Assembly: GCA_964582295.1 (NCBI GenBank)
Contig: CAZOQP010000001.1
Coordinates: 9,588-73,587, forward strand
DNA from: an uncultured Candidatus Saccharibacteria bacterium
GTDB taxonomy: Bacteria; Patescibacteriota; Minisyncoccia; Phycocordibacterales; Zambryskibacteraceae
Direction: 5' to 3'
Length of the DNA: 64,000 bases
Positions within the stretch are counted from its first letter, which is position 1, and every line of letters begins with the position of its first letter. Of this stretch, positions 26,254 to 56,069 are shown in pieces. The translations under genes and the position numbers were made by a program. The notes below the pieces were generated by a model that saw nothing but the letters and a program-made list of their open reading frames with translations, was not told the origin of the DNA and made no database searches.

Positions 26254-28380
26254 ATGCTTGATGAACTCTTTCGACTGAATCCGGCTCAGAAATCCGCCCT
26301 GAAAAAACTGGGTATCACTTCCGTTGAATCTCTCCTTTACCATATCCCCACGCGCTACGCTTCTTTTGATGGGAATAATTCCATAGCGAGCGCGCGGGCA
26401 GGAGAAGATATCGCGCTCATAGTAAACATAGAAAAAATAGAGACCAAAAAAGGATTCCGCTCAAAAATACCAATGGCAACAGGGCGCGTATCAGACCCCA
26501 CAGGGAAAATGGACGTAGTGTGGCTTCGCCAGCCGTACATTGCACGCATGTATCTTGCCGGTTCCACCATAAAAATCTCTGGCAAAGTTTCGGAAAGGAA
26601 CGGAAAGATCTCAATGGTGAACCCTAAAGTGCATCCGCTCACAGGAGAAGAGAACACTCCAATCTTTAGCGGCAAAGAAGGAGAAAGTTTGACTCCTGTA
26701 TATGCGGAAAGCCGCGGAGTGACAAGCGAATGGCTGCGGAATGCGGCTATTCGTCTCATAAAAAACAAACTGCATGAAGCTATAGAAGATCCAATACCGC
26801 CGGAAATGCTTTCTCGTTTTAATCTGCCTACTTTGAAAACCGCTTTTGTGTGGGCGCACATGCCGAAAAAACACGAGCACGCAGAAGCCGCTCGCAAGCG
26901 CTTTGCATTTGAAGAAGTTTTTTTCATACAGTTGGAAAAGCAGAAAGAGCGTGCGGAATGGCAAGCCCATCAGGCATTCGTTATTGAACCGGCAGAAGAA
27001 ACAGAAAGATTCATGGAATCGTTCCCCTACTCGCTCACGGCGGGACAGAAAAAAGCTATTGCGGATATTTTCGGGGATTTTGGCTCGGGTCGGCCGATGG
27101 CGCGGCTTCTTGAAGGCGACGTCGGCTCCGGCAAGACGGCCGTGGCGGCCGCCACGGCCTACGCCACTATCCGCACCCGGCCCAAAGGGCAAACTTTCGG
27201 AGCGCTTCAGGTGGCATACATGGCGCCCACAGAAATACTGGCATCCCAGCATTTTGAATCCTTCATACAATATTTTGTGGGTTCAGGAATTCAGATAGGC
27301 CTCATTACCGGTTCCGGCTGCAGAAAATTCCCGTCCAAAATAAAACGAGACGGCTGGACGGATATTTCCAGAACACAATTATTGAAATGGGTTGAGAACG
27401 GAGAAATACCAATTCTCATAGGTACGCATGCGCTCATACAAAAATCCGTGAAATTCAAACACTTGGCATATGCTGTGGTGGACGAGCAGCACCGCTTCGG
27501 CACGCGCCAGCGCGCGGCCTTGATACAAAAAGACGGCCGCGCGCCGCATCTTCTCTCCATGACAGCCACCCCTATTCCCCGCACATTGGCTCTCACGGTG
27601 TTTGGCGATCTTGATCTCACAGTGTTAGACGAAATGCCGCCGGGACGCAAACCAATAATGACCAAAATAGTGCCGCCGGATCAAAGATTTCATGCATATG
27701 AAGAAGTACGAAAGGAATTGACAGCGGGCAGGCAGGCGTATGTAATCTGCCCGCGTATAGACGAGCCGGATCCGGACAAGGAAATGGCAGTGCAGGCAAA
27801 ATCGGTGAAAGAAGAAGCGGCACGCCTCAAGAAAGAAGTTTTTCCTGAATACGAGATAGGAATTTTGCACAGCAAGATGAAGCCCTCGGAAAAAGATGAA
27901 GTAATGAAAGAATTTTCGGAAGGGCGCATACATATTTTGGTCGCAACATCGGTTGTGGAAGTGGGAGTGAACGTTCCGAATGCCACGTCTATCATCATTG
28001 AAGGTGCAGAAAGGTTCGGCCTGGCACAGCTTCATCAGCTGCGCGGACGTGTGGTGAGAAGCACTCATCAATCACGCTGTTTCGTGTTCTCTGAAGGAAC
28101 GAGTGAAAATACTTTTAGACGTCTGAAATCTTTTGAAAAAGCCAAAAATGGTTTTGAATTGGCTGAATTTGACCTGGAAACACGCGGTGCGGGAGACCTT
28201 GCAGGCGACAAGCAGTGGGGAGTTACCGACCTCGGTATGGAAGCCCTTAAAAATATAAAGATGGTTGAAGCGGCACGGAACGAAGCCAAAACCATAATTG
28301 AAAGCGATCCGGAGCTTTCAAAACATCCATCTCTCCAATCTCACCTGTCCGGACGCCGAACTAAAATTCATTTGGAATAG
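26254..28380 (+). CDS. recG: ATP-dependent DNA helicase RecG
   Basis: 708 aa with wedge domain, Walker A GDVGSGKT, DEQH box and a C-terminal helicase domain. Confidence 0.93.
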   Translation: MLDELFRLNPAQKSALKKLGITSVESLLYHIPTRYASFDGNNSIASARAGEDIALIVNIEKIETKKGFRSKIPMATGRVSDPTGKMDVVWLRQPYIARMYLAGSTIKISGKVSERNGKISMVNPKVHPLTGEENTPIFSGKEGESLTPVYAESRGVTSEWLRNAAIRLIKNKLHEAIEDPIPPEMLSRFNLPTLKTAFVWAHMPKKHEHAEAARKRFAFEEVFFIQLEKQKERAEWQAHQAFVIEPAEETERFMESFPYSLTAGQKKAIADIFGDFGSGRPMARLLEGDVGSGKTAVAAATAYATIRTRPKGQTFGALQVAYMAPTEILASQHFESFIQYFVGSGIQIGLITGSGCRKFPSKIKRDGWTDISRTQLLKWVENGEIPILIGTHALIQKSVKFKHLAYAVVDEQHRFGTRQRAALIQKDGRAPHLLSMTATPIPRTLALTVFGDLDLTVLDEMPPGRKPIMTKIVPPDQRFHAYEEVRKELTAGRQAYVICPRIDEPDPDKEMAVQAKSVKEEAARLKKEVFPEYEIGILHSKMKPSEKDEVMKEFSEGRIHILVATSVVEVGVNVPNATSIIIEGAERFGLAQLHQLRGRVVRSTHQSRCFVFSEGTSENTFRRLKSFEKAKNGFELAEFDLETRGAGDLAGDKQWGVTDLGMEALKNIKMVEAARNEAKTIIESDPELSKHPSLQSHLSGRRTKIHLE

Positions 28381-28454
28381 TCCGCCCGCTTGGACTTGAA
28401 CCAAGGACCCTCGAGGTATAAGCTCGATGCTCTAACCAACTGAGCTACGGGCGG
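28381..28454 (-). tRNA. tRNA-Ile (anticodon UAU), CCA not encoded
   Basis: Canonical cloverleaf: CCGCCCG-TA-GCTC-AGTTGGTTA-GAGC-A-TCGAG-CTTATAC-CTCGA-GGGTC-CTTGG-TTCAAGT-CCAAG-CGGGCGG-A. Anticodon positions 34-36 are UAU. Confidence 0.8.
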
Positions 28455-51418: not shown

Positions 51419-51766
51419 TTATTTTTTTACTGCTTCAGCCGGAGCTGCCTTGGATGCCTGGGCGGAAGCTATTTCAGCTTCCTTTTTCTTGGTTTCCAGT
51501 TCCTTCTGCATCTTTCCTCCGTGCTTTATGAATTTGCGGGTGGGAGAGAATTCGCCCAAGCGGTGACCCACCATATCTTCCGTAACGAAAACCTCAATGT
51601 GTTCCCGGCCGTTATGGACCCCAAAGGTGTGCCCCACCATCTCCGGAGCTATCTGGCTGTCTCTTGCCCAGGTCTTTATCACTCCGGCAGAGCCGGGCTT
51701 TTTACCCTCAATCTTCTTGAGGAGTTTTTCATATACATAGGGTCCTTTTGAGGATGAACGTGTCAT
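51419..51766 (-). CDS. rpsS: 30S ribosomal protein S19 (C-terminal Lys/Ala-rich extension)
   Basis: S19 core ([13 protein letters not shown]...[35 protein letters not shown]). 115 aa. Confidence 0.9.
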
Positions 51767-51826
51767 TTTTGACAGAAAAAAGCTCGTCAGAGCTTGGCGA
51801 AATATTATATGAATAGGAGCATAGTG

Positions 51827-52714
51827 TCAACGGGTAGGTCTATTCCTAAAAACGGAGATTTTCTCCTTCAATTTATACGCATTCCCATGTCTCAATAGCC
51901 CCAGATAAGACTGCACCGTTTCCGCCTTAACATCACCATTTTCGAGATTTTTCATCATCCTTCGCTTGGTAGTGGTTCTCAATACGCGATAATCATGAAA
52001 ATGCACCCAGCCCAGGAAATCCACACCTGAAGCCAAGGTTTTAATGAATACCTTGTCCGGATGAAGAGTGAGTTTAAGCTTCTCTCCTAGATAACATACG
52101 ATATATCGTATGTTATCTAGGAGGTTTCCTTTGTCATGGTGGAGTATTACGAAATCATCTGCATAGCGTATGTAGTGTTTTACTTTGAGCGTGTGCTTCA
52201 TGTATTGATCAAACTCGTTCATGTAGACATTTACCAGAAGCTGGGAGGTGAGGTTCCCGAGGGGCAGTCCAATGCCAGAAGCAGTGCTTGAGAAGCTTCC
52301 TATGACCTTTTGGAGAAGCCACATGGTGTCCTCATCTTTTATATGCTTGTTCAGGATTTCAATGAGTATTGAATGATCAATTGATGCGAAAAACTTGCGC
52401 ACATCGCATTTCAATATAAAACATGTGCGTGTCCTGTTGTTTGAAACTTTATATGAAAATCTTTTAAATCTCTCCATCGCCTTGTGGGTGCCTTTAAAGT
52501 TCCGGCAGGAATAGGAATCGTGTATGAATCTTTTGTCAAAGTACGGATACAAAACCCTGTATATGGCGTGGTGGAGCAGTCTGTCCCTCACGCTCGCCTT
52601 GTGGATATTCCTCGGCTTGGGGTCCGAAATGTTGAAAGCTGAATATCCTCCATGTGTATATGTTTTTCCGGCCAAATCCTGATGCAAAGAGAGTATGTTG
52701 TCCATGAGCCGCAA
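51827..52714 (-). CDS. diversity-generating retroelement reverse transcriptase
   Basis: 295 aa. RT motifs 1-7 with IRYADDFVIL (motif 5) and the DGR-specific motif 4 variant LGNLTSQ (I/LGxxxSQ, in place of QGxxxSP). No maturase or endonuclease domain. Confidence 0.85.
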   Translation of the reverse strand: MRLMDNILSLHQDLAGKTYTHGGYSAFNISDPKPRNIHKASVRDRLLHHAIYRVLYPYFDKRFIHDSYSCRNFKGTHKAMERFKRFSYKVSNNRTRTCFILKCDVRKFFASIDHSILIEILNKHIKDEDTMWLLQKVIGSFSSTASGIGLPLGNLTSQLLVNVYMNEFDQYMKHTLKVKHYIRYADDFVILHHDKGNLLDNIRYIVCYLGEKLKLTLHPDKVFIKTLASGVDFLGWVHFHDYRVLRTTTKRRMMKNLENGDVKAETVQSYLGLLRHGNAYKLKEKISVFRNRPTR

Positions 52715-52826
52715 GCCAAACTCCTGAACATCCTTTCTGTTCCGCTTGCCTCTTAAAAATTCCCTCCACGCTTCAAGGAGATTGTCTAAAGAAATGATAT
52801 CGTTATAGGTATGAGAAAACTCCCCT

Positions 52827-53213
52827 TTGAAGTCCCCCCCCCCCGCAGATTTCAGTAGTCATCTTATTCCTGTAATCATAAAGCTTAAAGACCTATATGG
52901 CCTATGGCAAGGATATTTGGCACACTTTCCGAAGTCAAAACGTTTTACACTCGGTTCCAAGCTTGATGACCTATTTTTGAGCGCCATTGAAAATTGCTTT
53001 TTAGCTAGTTACTCTTCAGGTGAAGAAAAGAACACATATGTTGACCGCTCAATCTCACGAGTGGATCTCATAAAATTATTACTTCAACTTGCATGGGAAA
53101 CTAGAGTCCTTGATACGAACAAATATTCTCATTTATCCGAAAATCTATCAGAGGTTGGGAAAATGCTTGGTGGATGGAAAAGACAACTGACAAGAAAAAC
53201 TCCCCCGCGGTGA
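52827..53213 (+). CDS. Avd-like four-helix-bundle protein (IVS-encoded protein family, DGR accessory variability determinant homolog)
   Basis: 128 aa with a TTG start. The sequence pattern ...FPKSKRFTLGSKLDDLFLSAIENCFLASYS...RVDLIKLLLQLAWETRVLD... is typical of four-helix-bundle/IVS proteins. It sits 23 bp from the TR but on the opposite strand to RT, TR and VR. Confidence 0.7.
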   Translation: MKSPPPADFSSHLIPVIIKLKDLYGLWQGYLAHFPKSKRFTLGSKLDDLFLSAIENCFLASYSSGEEKNTYVDRSISRVDLIKLLLQLAWETRVLDTNKYSHLSENLSEVGKMLGGWKRQLTRKTPPR

Positions 53214-53236
53214 TACGGGGGAGAACCATAATAGTG

Positions 53237-53365
53237 GCGCACGGCGAGGAACCGGCAACGCTCATCCCACTCGTTGTCGTTCCAGTTCAGATTGAGCTTG
53301 CGCTTAGAATCGTTCACGTCGAGATACGGAACGTTGCGATTGTCGTCCAACTGCGAGACGGAGCC
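53237..53365 (-). repeat. DGR template repeat (TR), 129 bp
   Basis: Near-identical to 53706-53834. All 14 mismatches have A in this copy (minus-strand sense) and G or T in the other. Confidence 0.85.
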
Positions 53366-53612
53366 TTGTACGACAAACCATCCATACCACCACCCATTGA
53401 ATAATCCCCGGGTTGAATCTTATTCGTGACCTTTGTGTCACATAGTTTGTCGCACCAACTTTCTCTGGTTTTTACCAAACCCGGAAACTCTCTTTCGGAA
53501 GCCGTGGCCGCCGAAACTCTCATTACTCGGGCGTGCGAACAAGTTACCCAAAGCCGTAACCGTAGGTTTTTCACTTGTCTCAATTATTGTATAGAAAAAA
53601 TTTACATATGAA

Positions 53613-53642
53613 AACTCCGTCGGACAGCTGTCCGACGGAGTT
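53613..53642 (-). terminator. 30-bp perfect palindrome AACTCCGTCGGACAG|CTGTCCGACGGAGTT + T-rich tract, 3' of the VR gene
   Basis: About 60 nt downstream of the VR end. It could also be the hairpin/cruciform element that follows DGR VRs (IMH-associated). Confidence 0.6.
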
Positions 53643-53700
53643 GTTTCCAAAGCCCAAGTACCAAGGCCAAAAACGAAGCCAAAGCTCAAGGGCCCAAGTA

Positions 53701-54309
53701 CTACTTGCGCACGGCGAGGAACCGGCAACGCTCACCCCACTCGTCGTCGCTCCAGTCCAGACTGAGCCCGCGCTCAGAATCGTCCACGTCGAGAAACGGA
53801 ACGTCGCGAAAGTCGCCCAACTGCGAGACGGAGCCGAGAGCGATAATGGGAAATCTCCGTTGAACCTCCGGAAATGTTGCTCCGAAAGCCAGAAGTTCCT
53901 CCATGGTAGCCGGGCGCATTCCCATCTTGTCGATTTCTTTCTTCACTTCATCGGTCGCAATAACACGATTTAAGTGAATGAGTTCGACGGTGGTCTCCAC
54001 CTTACCCTTACCCTTTACAGGGAAGCGCTCAGTGGTAATATCATCGTTTTTCCAATCGTACCGGCCGGATGCGATCATCTCCGCGAGCGTCATGGAATAA
54101 TCCACGACGACTTTGAGAACGAGCGGGCCCAGGCCGAGGAAATCCCGAAGCTCCCCGCGGGGTTTGTTGAAACCCGTCGCGAGAGCTTCCAGAAAATCCG
54201 GCAGGATGCCGTCGGAGACCGCTACCGCCAACTGTTCCTTGCTCACCCCTTTCTGGTCAATGAGGGTAAGGATGTGTCCCGCCTGCGGCAGTGTTGCGTT
54301 GGTGCTCAT
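53701..54309 (-). CDS. DGR variable (target) protein, VR at C-terminus
   Basis: 202 aa with no signal peptide or TM helix. The last ~43 codons are the VR (...VSQLGDFRDVPFLDVDDSERGLSLDWSDDEWGERCRFLAVRK). The TR encodes the Asn-rich template version (DDNRNVPYLDVNDSKRKLNLNWNDNEWDERCRFLAVR). Confidence 0.8.
   Translation of the reverse strand: MSTNATLPQAGHILTLIDQKGVSKEQLAVAVSDGILPDFLEALATGFNKPRGELRDFLGLGPLVLKVVVDYSMTLAEMIASGRYDWKNDDITTERFPVKGKGKVETTVELIHLNRVIATDEVKKEIDKMGMRPATMEELLAFGATFPEVQRRFPIIALGSVSQLGDFRDVPFLDVDDSERGLSLDWSDDEWGERCRFLAVRK
53706..53834 (-). repeat. DGR variable repeat (VR)
   Basis: 129 bp matching the TR except at 14 TR-adenine positions (11 A-to-G, 3 A-to-T). Confidence 0.85.
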
Positions 54310-54520
54310 AGGGTTCTCCTATGTGGCGCTACCTTTAGGGTAGCTGGTTCGCTAAATGTGCGACCTTAGTGTCGCCATAGCTTTTAATCCTCCATCTTGA
54401 AGAGCTAAAAGCTATGGCGAACAAGTAGTTCTTAAGGTTCTTTATCTTTTTCCATTATACACCTATTGACATATTTTGTCAAGTACTTCTTGGGTACCAA
54501 AAAATAGCCCTTTGTTGAGC

Positions 54521-55227
54521 TGTTTTTTACATAGGCAAGACCTATGTATAATTAAGATATGGCAATTAGAGAAATCTCCTTTGCTCCTGGATGCTATTAT
54601 CACATTTACAATCGAGGTAATAGCAAGCAGAAAATATTTCTTGATAAGAACGACTATCACCGTTTCATTAAGCTCCTTTATATTTCAAACTCACGGCAAA
54701 ACTTTGCCATCAGAAACTTTTCCAAGAAAAATATATACGACGTTGATCGCGGACAGAAACTGGTATCCATGGGAGCTTTTTGTTTAATGTCAAATCATTT
54801 CCACATTCTTTTATGCCAGCCGGAGAATGGCGACATCAGCAAGTTCATGCAAAAATTGAGCACATCTTACTCGATGTATTTTAATAAGAAATATGAACGG
54901 ACTGGCGGACTGTTTGAGAGTAAGTTCAAATCTGAATATGTAGAGACCGATCGTCATCTGAAATACCTATTTTCTTACATACACCTCAATCCATTAAAGA
55001 TCGTTGACCCGAAATGGAGAGAAAAAAGTGGGAATGATTTATCGGGGTCAATGAAATTCTTGGAAAATTACAATTTTTCTAGCTTTGATGAGTACATTGG
55101 GAAATCCCGTATTGAACAAGTTATTTTGGATAGACAGGATTTTCCAGAGTATTTCCCAGCCGAAAAAATATTTTTAGAAGAAATTACTGAATGGATTAAC
55201 TTTACATAGGCAAGACCTATGTAAGTC
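54521..55227 (+). mobile_element. IS200/IS605-family Y1 (HUH) transposase gene of RAYT/TnpA-REP type, flanked by identical subterminal hairpins
   Basis: CDS 54559..55209 (216 aa) with HIYNRGN...LMSNHFHILL (HUH) and a downstream Tyr region (YSMYFNKKYERTGGLFESKFKS). Both ends carry TTACATAGG-caaga-CCTATGTAA (54521-54547 and 55201-55227). Confidence 0.75.
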
Positions 55228-55229
55228 TG

Positions 55230-56069
55230 CTACTTTTTCCCTACCTTCCTTCGCTTCACTATGTAAACGTTTGAGTATTTCTTGGCACGGCGGGACTTCT
55301 GGCCCTTACCTGTCGGCTTGCCGTGGCGAGTGCGGGCACGACGGTGACCTCGGCCGGAGCGGCCTTCGCCTCCTCCGTGCGGATGGTCAACAGGGTTCAT
55401 GGCAGAACCACGAACGGTAGGGCGGATACCAAGCCAGCGAGAGCGTCCGGCTTTGCCGAGGTTCATCAGGCGATTTTCTGAATTGGAAACTTCTCCGACG
55501 CTTGCCCATGCATTGCTGTGTATCTTTCGCACTTCAGTTGAAGGCATTTTTATATCAACATATTCCCCGTCTTTTGCTACTACTTCCGCATAGTTTCCTC
55601 CGGAGCGAGCTACTTTCGCCTCTCCACCTTTTTTAAGCGAGATGTTGTACACAAAAGTTCCAACGGTCAGGCGGTGGAGAGGAAGACGGTTACCAGGAAT
55701 TTCCGCGGCGGTTTCTGAAGTTACAAAAGTGTCGCCAACCTTTGCTGATTTAGGCAGGAGAACGTAGCGCTTTGCGCCATCGTGGTAAAAGACGAGACCA
55801 ATGTAGCCAGAGCGGTTCGGATCGTACTCAACGCTCTTCACCACATAAGGAATATCGAATTTGTCGTATGAAAAATCAATGTCTCGGAAAAGGCGCTTGT
55901 GGCCACCACCCTTGTGCTGAACGGTAATGCGTCCGTGATGGTTGCGACCCTTATGGCGCTTGCGGCCAAAGGTGAGTTTTTTTGCAGGCTCAGAGGCAGT
56001 GGTTACCTCCTTGTACGGCAAAACCGTCATGTGCCTGCGGGATTTAGTTGTAGGTTTAAAACTTTTCAT
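55230..56069 (-). CDS. rplB: 50S ribosomal protein L2
   Basis: 279 aa. Confidence 0.93.
   Translation of the reverse strand: MKSFKPTTKSRRHMTVLPYKEVTTASEPAKKLTFGRKRHKGRNHHGRITVQHKGGGHKRLFRDIDFSYDKFDIPYVVKSVEYDPNRSGYIGLVFYHDGAKRYVLLPKSAKVGDTFVTSETAAEIPGNRLPLHRLTVGTFVYNISLKKGGEAKVARSGGNYAEVVAKDGEYVDIKMPSTEVRKIHSNAWASVGEVSNSENRLMNLGKAGRSRWLGIRPTVRGSAMNPVDHPHGGGEGRSGRGHRRARTRHGKPTGKGQKSRRAKKYSNVYIVKRRKVGKK

What the first reader, a model, noticed from the sequence alone, without database searches (positions are those of the whole stretch)
51827..54309. Complete diversity-generating retroelement: 14 of 14 TR/VR differences are adenine-specific
Two 129-bp repeats (53237-53365 and 53706-53834) are identical except at 14 positions. 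At every one of them the first copy has A on the minus strand and the second has G (11 positions) or T (3 positions). The second copy forms the last ~43 codons of a 202-aa ORF; the first is non-genic and Asn-codon rich (AAC/AAT). This is the TR/VR signature of DGR mutagenic retrohoming. The adjacent 295-aa RT carries the DGR-specific motif-4 variant LGNLTSQ and RYADD. An Avd-like four-helix-bundle gene and a post-VR hairpin are also present. The target is small, has no signal peptide, and ends in ...WGERCRFLAVRK (FGE/CLec-like C-terminus). An intact, probably active DGR in a small-genome lineage is a strong candidate for the most interesting system in this window.
Basis: partly seen in the sequence, partly recalled or inferred. 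Interest (0 to 1): 0.85.

Follow-up and report, generated by a model that had tools for sequence, protein, structure and literature searches.

The report
Diversity-generating retroelement inside ribosomal operon
This is a real, essentially complete diversity-generating retroelement of the type already known to be common in tiny-genome (CPR/Patescibacteria) bacteria; it is ordinary as a kind, but its clade carries a conserved poly-G repeat and a structured template RNA that I could not find described.

Summary
All 14 are TR adenines (11 A>G, 3 A>T), and none of the 101 non-A positions differs (P about 2e-11).

The RT has LGNLTSQ and YADD, and its best solved relative is the Bordetella phage DGR RT. 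Avd matches Pfam bAvd but lies on the opposite strand. The 202-aa target has no family hit but models confidently as a C-type-lectin fold.

This is the TR-(avd)-RT "B3" architecture that Wu et al. 2018 report for 90% of CPR DGRs, so it is a new member of a known kind.

Caveat on "intact": the RT has no canonical in-frame start. The only nearby ATG is out of frame across an 11-G run.

Evidence of activity is indirect:
- An independent assembly of the same strain breaks exactly one base before the first adenine-templated VR site.
- Two near-identical relatives differ at 17 VR positions, all at TR adenines.

Clade-wide extras I could not find described: a G7-14 or dinucleotide repeat at the avd/RT junction, a covariation-supported structured RNA 5' of TR, a terminator after TR, and CTTGG repeats after VR.

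The parts
54454..54482 (-). Promoter-like site of the target gene (TTGACA-17-TATAAT, 12/12 match)
54372..54420 (-). Long hairpin in the target 5'UTR (15-bp perfect arms)
   Evidence: inverted repeat I6. The same hairpin, with changed arm sequences, is seen in L002, L072, L012 and L007.
53701..54309 (-). Target (variable protein) gene, 202 aa: N-terminal four-helix region plus a C-terminal C-type-lectin-fold domain. No signal peptide, no Pfam or NCBIfam hit.
53707..53835 (-). VR, the variable repeat (last 43 codons of the target)
53707..53734 (-). IMH-like segment: 28 nt, GC-rich, identical in VR and TR, lying 3' of the last variable site. The two copies diverge immediately after it (VR AAGTAG, TR CACTAT).
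53647..53698 (-). VR-specific 3' flank with six CTT(T/A)G(G/A) repeats, absent from the TR flank
   Evidence: 3.1 motifs per 75 nt across 43 loci against 0.29 in shuffles; modal spacing 8 nt.
53613..53642 (-).
   Evidence: Relatives have equivalent hairpins at similar distances.
53586..53614 (-). Promoter-like site for the TR RNA (TTTTCA-17-TACAAT). The -10 box is conserved across relatives.
   Evidence: alignment A4, columns about 55-62.
53366..53580 (-). Structured 5' leader of the TR RNA. Helices in the window: 53513-53507/53502-53496; 53455-53444/53379-53368 (12 bp, closing 2 nt before TR); 53441-53438/53429-53426; 53413-53405/53400-53392.
   Evidence: 37 pairs; 93.6% of cells paired against 36-48% in slid controls; 34 pairs carry compensatory changes.
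53237..53365 (-). TR, the template repeat (28 adenines, all at codon position 1 or 2 of the VR frame)
53190..53223 (-). Intrinsic terminator directly after TR (9-bp GC-rich stem plus TTTTTCTT), overlapping the avd stop codon on the other strand
   Evidence: Nearly every locus with a TR/VR pair has the equivalent hairpin and U-run.
52827..53213 (+). avd (accessory variability determinant), 128 aa from TTG, on the strand opposite to RT, TR and VR
   Evidence: Pfam bAvd 50.2 bits, gathering score 40; NCBIfam DivGenRetAVD 64.2 bits, below its cutoff of 80.
52834..52844 (.). 11-bp G:C homopolymer at the divergent avd/RT junction. It reads G on the RT strand, encodes Pro-Pro-Pro in the longest avd ORF, and lies 15 nt upstream of the conserved RT N-terminus.
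51827..52819 (-). Reverse transcriptase, about 330 aa of homology. LGNLTSQ and RYADD are present and there are no internal stops. No canonical in-frame start exists between the G-run and TTG 52714.
52084..52123 (.). 40-nt perfect palindrome inside the RT ORF (core CGATATATCG)
   Evidence: It recurs with different but still perfect arms in about 13-17 of 84 relatives. An independent assembly breaks inside it.

Best explanation
This is a chromosomal diversity-generating retroelement of the CPR-typical TR-(avd)-RT ('B3') architecture. It sits between rplB and rpsS in a Patescibacterium (Minisyncoccia/Parcubacteria-like).

Proposed mechanism, step by step:
1. The TR is transcribed as a discrete non-coding RNA of about 390 nt from its own promoter. 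The RNA has a roughly 210-nt structured leader, the 129-nt TR, and an intrinsic terminator. The conserved structure, -10 box and terminator are shown; transcription itself is inferred.
2. RT and Avd are expressed divergently from a junction about 30 bp long that contains a G11 run. They bind this RNA and copy TR into cDNA, misincorporating opposite adenines. This step is inferred by homology to Bordetella phage bRT-Avd.
3. The cDNA replaces VR at the 3' end of the target gene. It is directed by the 28-nt GC-rich IMH-like identity and probably by the VR-specific flank of CTTGG repeats. This step is inferred.
4. The result recodes up to 19 codons (about 3e16 protein variants) on the surface of a small, apparently cytoplasmic C-type-lectin-fold protein whose ligand is unknown.

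The element has homed recently. Whether it is active now depends on how the RT is translated, because it lacks a canonical in-frame start.
For: TR/VR: 14 of 14 differences at TR adenines and 0 of 101 non-A positions changed, P = 2e-11. All TR adenines lie at codon position 1 or 2.

Proteins:
- The RT has LGNLTSQ and RYADD, a 343-codon open frame, and the BPP-1-like bRT 8ub7_A as best solved relative (143.6 bits against 75 or less for others).
- Avd passes the Pfam bAvd gathering score.

Clade context: more than 521 RT relatives exist in metagenomes. Of the 108 loci scanned, 45 carry an A-specific TR/VR pair in the same layout.

TR RNA: the leader structure has 34 of 37 pairs with compensatory changes and 93.6% of cells paired against 36-48% in slid controls. 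A terminator follows TR in nearly every locus examined.

Activity in the clade: L076 and L081 are 99.2% identical with identical TRs, yet differ at 17 VR positions, all at TR adenines.

Activity in this strain: a Logan contig from run SRR6868922 is 100% identical to the window over 5013 nt. It ends at 53823, exactly one base before the first adenine-templated VR position (53822), as expected for a de Bruijn graph branching at a polymorphic site.

Architecture and host match published CPR DGRs (PMC5758913, PMC8144416; L2 relatives).
Against: - There is no ATG/GTG/TTG in the RT frame between the G-run and residue 20. The only nearby ATG (52862) is out of frame with 11 G, and 10 or 13 G would fuse it. 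However, 21 of 68 clade members share this lack, and several of them have clean A-specific TR/VR pairs.
- Avd falls below the NCBIfam cutoff (64 against 80) and has no PDB sequence hit.
- No read-level population data were available. The contig-break argument is indirect.
- The hairpin after VR is 65 nt from VR, unlike the IMH-adjacent cruciform of BPP-1.
- The target's ligand and cellular location are unknown.
Confidence: 0.88

Rival explanations
1. A recently inactivated DGR. The cassette homed not long ago, but the RT can no longer be translated because its start codon was lost and the ATG is frameshifted at G11. VR is therefore now frozen.
For: There is no canonical in-frame RT start. The ATG used by close relatives (MNRIRFTHTYNDIIS / MRIGFIHTYKDIIS) is missing, through a roughly 12-nt shorter segment in the window. 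Clade members can decay: in L002/L004 the RT is frameshifted and VR is static between two 99.8%-identical strains.
Against: The RT body is a 343-codon open frame with all motifs intact. Zero drift is seen at 101 non-A TR/VR positions. 21 of 68 relatives lack a canonical RT start yet keep clean A-only mismatch patterns. The demonstrably diversifying L076/L081 element lacks a canonical in-frame avd start, so non-canonical initiation seems common in this clade. An independent assembly breaks exactly at the first A-templated VR site.
Confidence: 0.2
2. The two repeats are an ordinary partial gene duplication, or a pseudogene copy of the target's 3' end, next to an unrelated RT such as a retron, a group II intron or a defence RT.
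For: The best NCBIfam hits of the RT are group II intron RT/maturase (134 bits, far below the cutoff of 300) and defence RTs. That library appears to have no DGR-RT model.
Against: Mismatches fall only on TR adenines (P = 2e-11). The RT has the DGR motif LGNLTSQ instead of the group II or retron equivalents. bRT is its best solved relative, at roughly twice the score of the others. Avd is adjacent. No group II intron or retron RNA family matched. The same layout with A-specific repeats recurs in 45 loci.
Confidence: 0.01
3. The DGR belongs to a prophage or another mobile element and diversifies a phage receptor-binding protein, as in Bordetella phage BPP-1.
For: A few close RT relatives (59-64% identity) lie on contigs that IMG/VR classes as viral. 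A RAYT/IS200-like gene flanked by a 23-nt repeat lies next to the cassette. The cassette is absent from the closest relatives at this junction, so it was gained.
Against: Both flanks are core ribosomal-protein genes of the S10 operon, and nothing phage-like lies between them. The target is a 202-aa protein without phage tail features. Roux et al. 2021 class the CPR clade as almost entirely cellular (PMC8144416). A RAYT neighbour is seen in only one other locus of about 100.
Confidence: 0.04

Closest known systems
CPR/Patescibacteria DGRs of architecture B3, TR-(avd)-RT (Wu et al. 2018, NAR 46:11, PMC5758913); 'DGR clade 2' of Roux et al. 2021 (PMC8144416); first surveyed by Paul et al. 2017, which I could not read here
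   Same: The order target-VR, TR, reversed avd, RT. A Patescibacterial host. A small target without signal peptide, transmembrane segment or known domain. VR at the C-terminus of a CLec-type domain. Association with ribosomal-protein genes, which Wu et al. noted for five CPR DGRs.
   Different: Nothing at the level of kind. The papers I could read do not mention the junction repeat, the structured TR leader with its terminator, the CTTGG repeats after VR, or the palindrome inside the RT ORF. I cannot exclude that these are described in papers not held in the library.
Bordetella phage BPP-1 DGR (mtd-avd-TR-brt), the prototype
   Same: Adenine-specific TR-to-VR transfer. An RT with IGxxxSQ/YxDD (8ub7_A is the best solved relative). 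An Avd accessory protein. A GC-rich IMH-like end of VR. A CLec-fold target.
   Different: - avd is inverted and lies between TR and RT.
- The TR RNA appears to end at a terminator about 15-45 nt after TR, so there is no counterpart of the 140-nt spacer (Rfam RT-10 motif) between TR and RT. The conserved structured RNA is instead 5' of TR.
- There is no IMH-adjacent cruciform.
- The element is chromosomal and its target is apparently cytoplasmic, not a phage tail fibre.
Solved DGR variable proteins and other CLec/FGE-fold proteins (Treponema TvpA 2y3c; SUMF2 1y4j; EgtB; PvdO)
   Different: Sequence identity is 3-13%. The domain is about 140 residues and is preceded only by a roughly 60-residue helical N-terminus. 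It has no Pfam family.
Simple-sequence-repeat contingency loci (for example, from general knowledge, poly-G tracts in Neisseria and Campylobacter genes, or the TA repeat in the divergent hifA/hifB promoter of Haemophilus)
   Same: An uninterrupted G7-14 run, or a (GT)n or (CT)n repeat, at a fixed place between or within two divergent genes. Its length differs among close relatives.
   Different: No ON/OFF effect has been shown. Which gene, if any, reads through the tract is unresolved. In the window, no tract length puts both the avd TTG and the RT ATG in frame.

Membership tests
Diversity-generating retroelement (DGR) | TR/VR repeat pair whose differences are restricted to TR adenines | tested here: met
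   14 of 14 at A and 0 of 101 at non-A positions; P = 2e-11
Diversity-generating retroelement (DGR) | VR at the 3' end of a protein-coding target; TR not part of a real gene; TR adenines at codon positions 1/2 (AAY-rich) | tested here: met
   VR is the last 43 codons of the 202-aa ORF. TR lies inside a promoter-to-terminator ncRNA unit. 28 of 28 adenines are at position 1 or 2.
Diversity-generating retroelement (DGR) | RT with the DGR-type motif 4 [LIV]GxxxSQ and catalytic YxDD | tested here: met
   LPLGNLTSQ and RYADD are invariant in alignment A3. They align to IGSLTSQ and YMDD of 8ub7_A.
Diversity-generating retroelement (DGR) | RT groups with DGR RTs rather than group II or retron RTs | tested here: inconclusive
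   No tree was built. The best solved relative is the Bordetella-phage-type bRT (143.6 bits against 75 or less). All 45 relatives with detectable repeats are DGRs. NCBIfam has only below-cutoff group II and defence RT hits.
Diversity-generating retroelement (DGR) | Accessory protein Avd (four-helix bundle) | tested here: met
   Pfam bAvd 50.2 bits against a gathering score of 40. NCBIfam DivGenRetAVD is below its cutoff (64.2 against 80).
Diversity-generating retroelement (DGR) | IMH / IMH*: a GC-rich identical segment 3' of the last variable site, then divergence between VR and TR | tested here: met
   28 identical nt (TGAGCGTTGCCGGTTCCTCGCCGTGCGC), then AAGTAG in VR against CACTAT in TR
Diversity-generating retroelement (DGR) | GC-rich inverted repeat immediately downstream of IMH (BPP-1 type; present in only 34% of DGRs according to Wu et al.) | tested here: not met
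   The nearest hairpin is 65 nt downstream and terminator-like. The intervening flank holds CTTGG repeats instead. This feature is not a universal defining feature.
Diversity-generating retroelement (DGR) | Variable residues displayed on a C-type-lectin (or Ig) fold | tested here: met
Diversity-generating retroelement (DGR) | Ongoing VR diversification in a population | tested here: inconclusive
   For this strain the evidence is only indirect: an independent Logan contig ends one base before the first A-templated VR site. For the clade the feature is met: L076 and L081 differ at 17 VR sites, all at TR adenines. Read mapping was not possible.
CPR 'B3' architecture DGRs (Wu et al. 2018) | Order TR-(avd)-RT with avd on the reverse strand, in a CPR/Patescibacteria host | tested here: met
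   avd is on the plus strand between TR and RT, which are on the minus strand. The same layout is seen in all relatives with RT identity of 45% or more. The best named relatives of L2 are Minisyncoccia, Zambryskibacteria and Parcubacteria.
Phase-variable contingency locus | Uninterrupted simple-sequence repeat at a fixed site in or next to a gene, with length varying among relatives | tested here: met
   G7-14 in 68 non-redundant loci. (GT)n or (CT)n replaces it in L009, L033, L038 and L056. It is absent from 0 of 65 distant and 0 of 11 intermediate DGRs.
Phase-variable contingency locus | Within-population length variation that switches expression ON and OFF | not testable with these tools
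   This needs reads or clones. The reading-frame analysis is ambiguous.

The most novel reading that the evidence does not exclude
In this sub-clade of CPR DGRs the mutagenesis machinery is itself under a stochastic genetic switch. A hypermutable simple-sequence repeat sits in the roughly 30-bp divergent avd/RT junction. It is G7-14 in most loci and is replaced in some by (GT)n or (CT)n, which argues that slippage matters rather than sequence. The repeat would toggle Avd and/or RT expression, so that only a fraction of cells diversify the target.

The template would act as a discrete, terminated ncRNA whose conserved structured domain lies 5' of TR rather than 3' as in BPP-1. That implies a different RNA-protein geometry for priming.

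In the window, the 11-G allele would be an 'avd in frame, RT-ATG out of frame' state.
Probability: 0.3. Interest if true: 0.7.

Novelty: new member of a known kind. Interest (0 to 1): 0.4.

Why it matters
As a DGR in a CPR bacterium it adds one more example to a well-documented class. The small cytoplasmic CLec target repeats an already stated open question: what do CPR DGR targets bind?

The value lies in features shared by this element and about 70 relatives, which give concrete handles on how this very abundant but unstudied DGR lineage works:
- A defined template RNA of about 390 nt, with strong covariation support and a terminator, that could be used directly for in-vitro reconstitution.
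- A VR-specific repeat array that may mark the homing site.
- A conserved hypermutable repeat between avd and RT that would, if functional, be a switch controlling a hypermutator.

The repeated placement of these cassettes inside the S10-spc ribosomal gene cluster is also unexplained.

Tried and rejected
- Similarity between the target 5'UTR and the TR leader (both contain ACTTGTTCGC): the local alignment score of 29 is no better than shuffles at 25±5. Rejected.
- Rfam: no family reaches its gathering score in the DGR or in 20 relatives. The only RT-associated hit is RT-7 at 19 bits against a gathering score of 116.8, E = 0.12, which I treat as chance.
- Poly-G as a Shine-Dalgarno element for the RT: the RT start lies 13 nt after the tract in 11 of 47 loci. 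However, the tract is replaced by (CT)n or (GT)n in four loci and 21 loci have no start after it, so this cannot be the general explanation.
- Poly-G as a sequencing artefact: rejected. It is internal and at the same site in assemblies from JGI, ENA and NCBI projects.
- Reading-frame tests across the tract: the Avd frame is open in 56 of 68 loci and the RT frame in 49 of 68, against 19-46 for the other frames. This is suggestive only.
- Attempts to recover the source record, or the middle Logan contig that carries the G-run, failed. The exact target protein is not indexed. Avd, RT and eight small ORFs are absent from the collection or present only on the NCBI contig.
- RAYT as the vehicle of the cassette: it is adjacent in only 2 of about 100 loci.
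- A remnant DGR in the closest relatives at rplB|rpsS: none was found.
- Avd against PDB sequences: no hit.
- The Paul et al. 2017 paper is not held in the library.
Full report
**Observation.** On the minus strand the two 129-nt copies are TR 53237-53365 and VR 53707-53835 (offset 470). They differ at 14 positions. At every one TR has A, while VR has G (11 positions) or T (3 positions). TR contains 28 A, and none of the 101 non-A positions differs. If 14 mismatches fell at random on 129 positions, all would hit A sites with P = 2e-11. VR forms the last 43 codons of the 202-aa ORF 53701-54309. All 28 TR adenines sit at codon position 1 or 2 (AAC, AAT, AAG, GAC, GAT and similar). The 14 changes alter 12 codons, all non-synonymously. 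The 19 A-containing codons could encode about 3e16 protein variants. No second VR or target paralogue exists in the window.

**Components.**
- RT: the RT frame is open for 343 codons (52858-51830). It matches Pfam RVT_1 and carries LPLGNLTSQ and RYADD. Among all PDB sequences its best match is 8ub7_A (328 aa, 143.6 bits, E = 9e-41). The aligned sequence of that chain (…WENLLDAYRKTSHGKRR…IGSLTSQ…YMDD…) is, from my own knowledge, the Bordetella phage BPP-1 bRT. Group-II-like and retron-type RTs score 75 bits or less. NCBIfam gives only below-cutoff group II and defence RT hits.
- Avd: avd (52827-53213) passes the Pfam bAvd gathering score (50.2 against 40) but lies on the plus strand, opposite to RT, TR and VR.

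**What is known.** Wu et al. 2018 (PMC5758913) define architecture B3 as TR-(avd)-RT with avd reversed. They state that it accounts for 90% of CPR DGRs and is nearly absent elsewhere. [quoted passage not shown] Roux et al. 2021 (PMC8144416) place CPR DGRs in a cellular clade 2 whose targets typically lack a transmembrane segment, a signal peptide or any known domain. The window's ribosomal protein L2 is closest to Minisyncoccia, Zambryskibacteria and Parcubacteria sequences. The element is therefore a typical member of a documented class.

**Is it intact?** Close relatives start their RT at an ATG downstream of a G-run (L001 MNRIRFTHTYNDIIS, L002 MRIGFIHTYKDIIS). In the window that segment is about 12 nt shorter and holds no ATG/GTG/TTG in frame (…GGDFKGEFSHTYNDIIS). 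The only nearby ATG (52862) is out of frame with the 11-G run at 52834-52844. Ten or 13 G would fuse it to the RT frame, but would then break the avd ORF that starts at TTG 52827 and reads the run as Pro-Pro-Pro. This is the only G/C homopolymer of 8 or more in the 64-kb window.

The problem is not peculiar to this locus. In 21 of 68 non-redundant relatives the RT has no canonical in-frame start after the tract, and many of those have perfectly A-specific TR/VR pairs. The L076/L081 element, which is demonstrably diversifying, has no canonical in-frame avd start. I therefore treat translation initiation as unresolved, not as evidence of decay.

**Evidence of activity.**
1. There is zero drift between TR and VR outside adenines.
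2. L076 and L081 are two relatives with 99.2% identity over 5.6 kb and identical TRs. They differ at 17 VR positions, all at TR adenines. By contrast, L002 and L004 (99.8% identical) have a frameshifted RT and identical VRs.
3. A Logan contig from run SRR6868922 is 100% identical to the window from 58835 to 53823 and stops there. The next base (53822) is the first adenine-templated VR position. A de Bruijn graph branching at a polymorphic site would end in exactly that way. No TR/VR shared stretch is long enough to cause the break, because the longest is 28 nt. This is indirect but specific evidence for VR heterogeneity in the sampled population.
4. The contig on the other side starts at 52113, inside the 40-nt palindrome.

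**Anatomy of the clade.** A metagenome scan with an RT alignment found more than 521 relatives, and 80 loci were fetched. A genome scan with the target added more. Of the 108 loci scanned, 45 have an A-specific TR/VR pair with the same order and spacing: VR, about 330 nt, TR, about 30 nt, reversed avd, RT. Four conserved non-coding features emerged.

(a) TR leader. The roughly 210 nt upstream of TR begin just after a conserved -10 box (TAnAAT). They fold into six helices, including a 12-bp helix that closes 2 nt before TR. On 43 sequences, 93.6% of cells are paired against 36-48% when partners are slid by 1-3 columns. 34 of 37 pairs show compensatory changes, and no shuffle out of 500 reaches the observed values. 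The window's own MFE fold reproduces these helices. No Rfam family matches at its gathering score. Weinberg et al. 2017 (PMC5737381) assigned only the RT-10 motif, which lies 3' of TR in BPP-1, to a DGR.

(b) TR terminator. Immediately 3' of TR, nearly all loci examined have a short pyrimidine-rich linker, then a GC-rich hairpin with varying stem sequence and a U-run. In the window this is 53223-53200 plus TTTTTCTT. The template therefore looks like a discrete terminated ncRNA rather than part of a TR-RT transcript.

(c) VR flank. The 75 nt after VR contain CTT(T/A)G(G/A) motifs at 3.1 per locus against 0.29 in shuffles. The modal spacing is 8 nt, and CTTGG occurs 68 times against 4.7 expected. 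The TR flank lacks them.

(d) Junction repeat. The avd/RT junction carries G7-14 on the RT strand in 68 non-redundant loci (lengths 10: 24, 9: 22, 8: 9, 11: 8, 7: 5, 14: 1). It carries (CT)17, (GT)12, (GT)8 or (GT)7 in L009, L038, L033 and L056. Lengths differ between loci with near-identical flanks. As a control, 65 DGR RTs below 45% identity and 11 B3-type RTs at 45-50% identity from viral contigs have no such repeat.

**Interpretation of the junction repeat.** Replacement of the G-run by dinucleotide repeats argues against a sequence-specific role such as a G-rich ribosome-binding site. It argues for selection on slippage-prone DNA, that is, a contingency-type switch on Avd and/or RT. Frame analyses are only suggestive: the Avd frame is open through the tract in 56 of 68 loci and the RT frame in 49 of 68, against 19-46 for other frames. 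I found no paper linking DGRs with homopolymeric tracts or phase variation. This remains a hypothesis.

**Genomic context.** The cassette sits between rplB and rpsS, together with a RAYT/IS200-like gene (54559-55209, plus strand) flanked by two perfect copies of TTTACATAGGCAAGACCTATGTA. The surrounding cluster is otherwise canonical: tuf-rpsJ-rplC-rplD-rplW-rplB | rpsS-rplV-rpsC-rplP…. The closest relatives (L2 80-86% identical) carry unrelated cargo or a 0.9-kb gap at the same junction and no DGR remnant. The junction is thus a variable hotspot and the DGR is a lineage-specific gain.

Other clade members also lie in the S10-spc region. In L051 the RT is followed by rpsS. In L062 the order is rpsE-rplO-secY | DGR | adk-map-ndk. 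L037 and L104 lie next to map, and L094 and L095 next to ndk. L001 lies upstream of rpsF-ssb-rpsR. The target has a perfect consensus promoter, and rpsS has its own promoter-like site.

**Verdict.** The finding is real and correctly interpreted. It is a new member of a known kind. It has an unresolved RT start and indirect signs of current activity. Its clade carries several apparently undescribed cis-elements that deserve follow-up more than the DGR call itself does.

Noticed in passing
window 52834-52844; same site in L001, L007, L028-L107: A simple-sequence repeat sits at the divergent avd/RT junction throughout this RT sub-clade: G7-14 in most loci, (GT)n or (CT)n in a few. It is absent from more distant DGRs. 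It may be a phase-variation switch on the mutagenesis genes.
   Followed up: partly
window 53366-53580 (minus strand); alignment A4: A conserved structured RNA of about 210 nt lies immediately 5' of TR. It has six helices, very strong covariation and a conserved -10 box upstream. No Rfam family matches it.
   Followed up: yes
window 53190-53223 (minus strand): An intrinsic terminator lies directly after TR and overlaps the avd stop codon. It is conserved in nearly all relatives examined, so the template looks like a discrete ncRNA of about 390 nt.
   Followed up: partly
window 53647-53698 (minus strand): An array of CTTGG/CTTTGG/CTTGA motifs with spacing of about 8 nt lies in the VR 3' flank only. 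It is enriched tenfold over shuffles across 43 loci and may be a homing-site marker.
   Followed up: partly
window 52084-52123: A 40-nt perfect palindrome (core CGATATATCG) lies inside the RT coding sequence without any length change relative to homologues. About 13-17 of 84 relatives have a perfect palindrome of 16-34 nt at the same codons, with different arm sequences. An independent assembly breaks inside it.
   Followed up: partly
window 54372-54420 (minus strand): A long hairpin (15-bp perfect arms, GCCATAGC…GCTATGGC) lies in the target gene's 5'UTR and is followed by a second small hairpin before the SD. The same hairpins, with changed arm sequences, occur in L002, L072, L012 and L007, which suggests a regulatory leader.
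   Followed up: partly
window 54526-55223: A RAYT/IS200-like Y1 transposase gene (54559-55209, plus strand) is flanked by two perfect copies of the palindrome-containing 23-mer TTTACATAGGCAAGACCTATGTA. These are the only two copies in the window. A 34-nt stretch around it also occurs just after rplB in relative L111.
   Followed up: partly
window 51766-56069; L108, L109, L111, L051, L062: The rplB|rpsS junction is a variable insertion hotspot in this lineage, with different cargo in each close relative. DGRs of this clade recur at several junctions of the S10-spc ribosomal gene cluster.
   Followed up: partly
L193 (Logan SRR6868922), ending at window 53823: An independent assembly of the same strain ends exactly one base before the first adenine-templated VR position. 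This is consistent with VR polymorphism in the sampled population.
   Followed up: yes
window 53701-54309 compared with the whole window: The target gene has 56.5% G+C, against 46.5% for the window, 43% for RT, 41% for avd and 36% for the RAYT gene.
   Followed up: no
window 28380-28454: ARAGORN calls a tRNA-Ile with anticodon TAT (UAU), an uncommon way for bacteria to read AUA.
   Followed up: no
L012 246-985: In one relative, a group I intron within the 3' end of the 23S rRNA gene, followed by 5S rRNA, lies about 4 kb upstream of the DGR.
   Followed up: no
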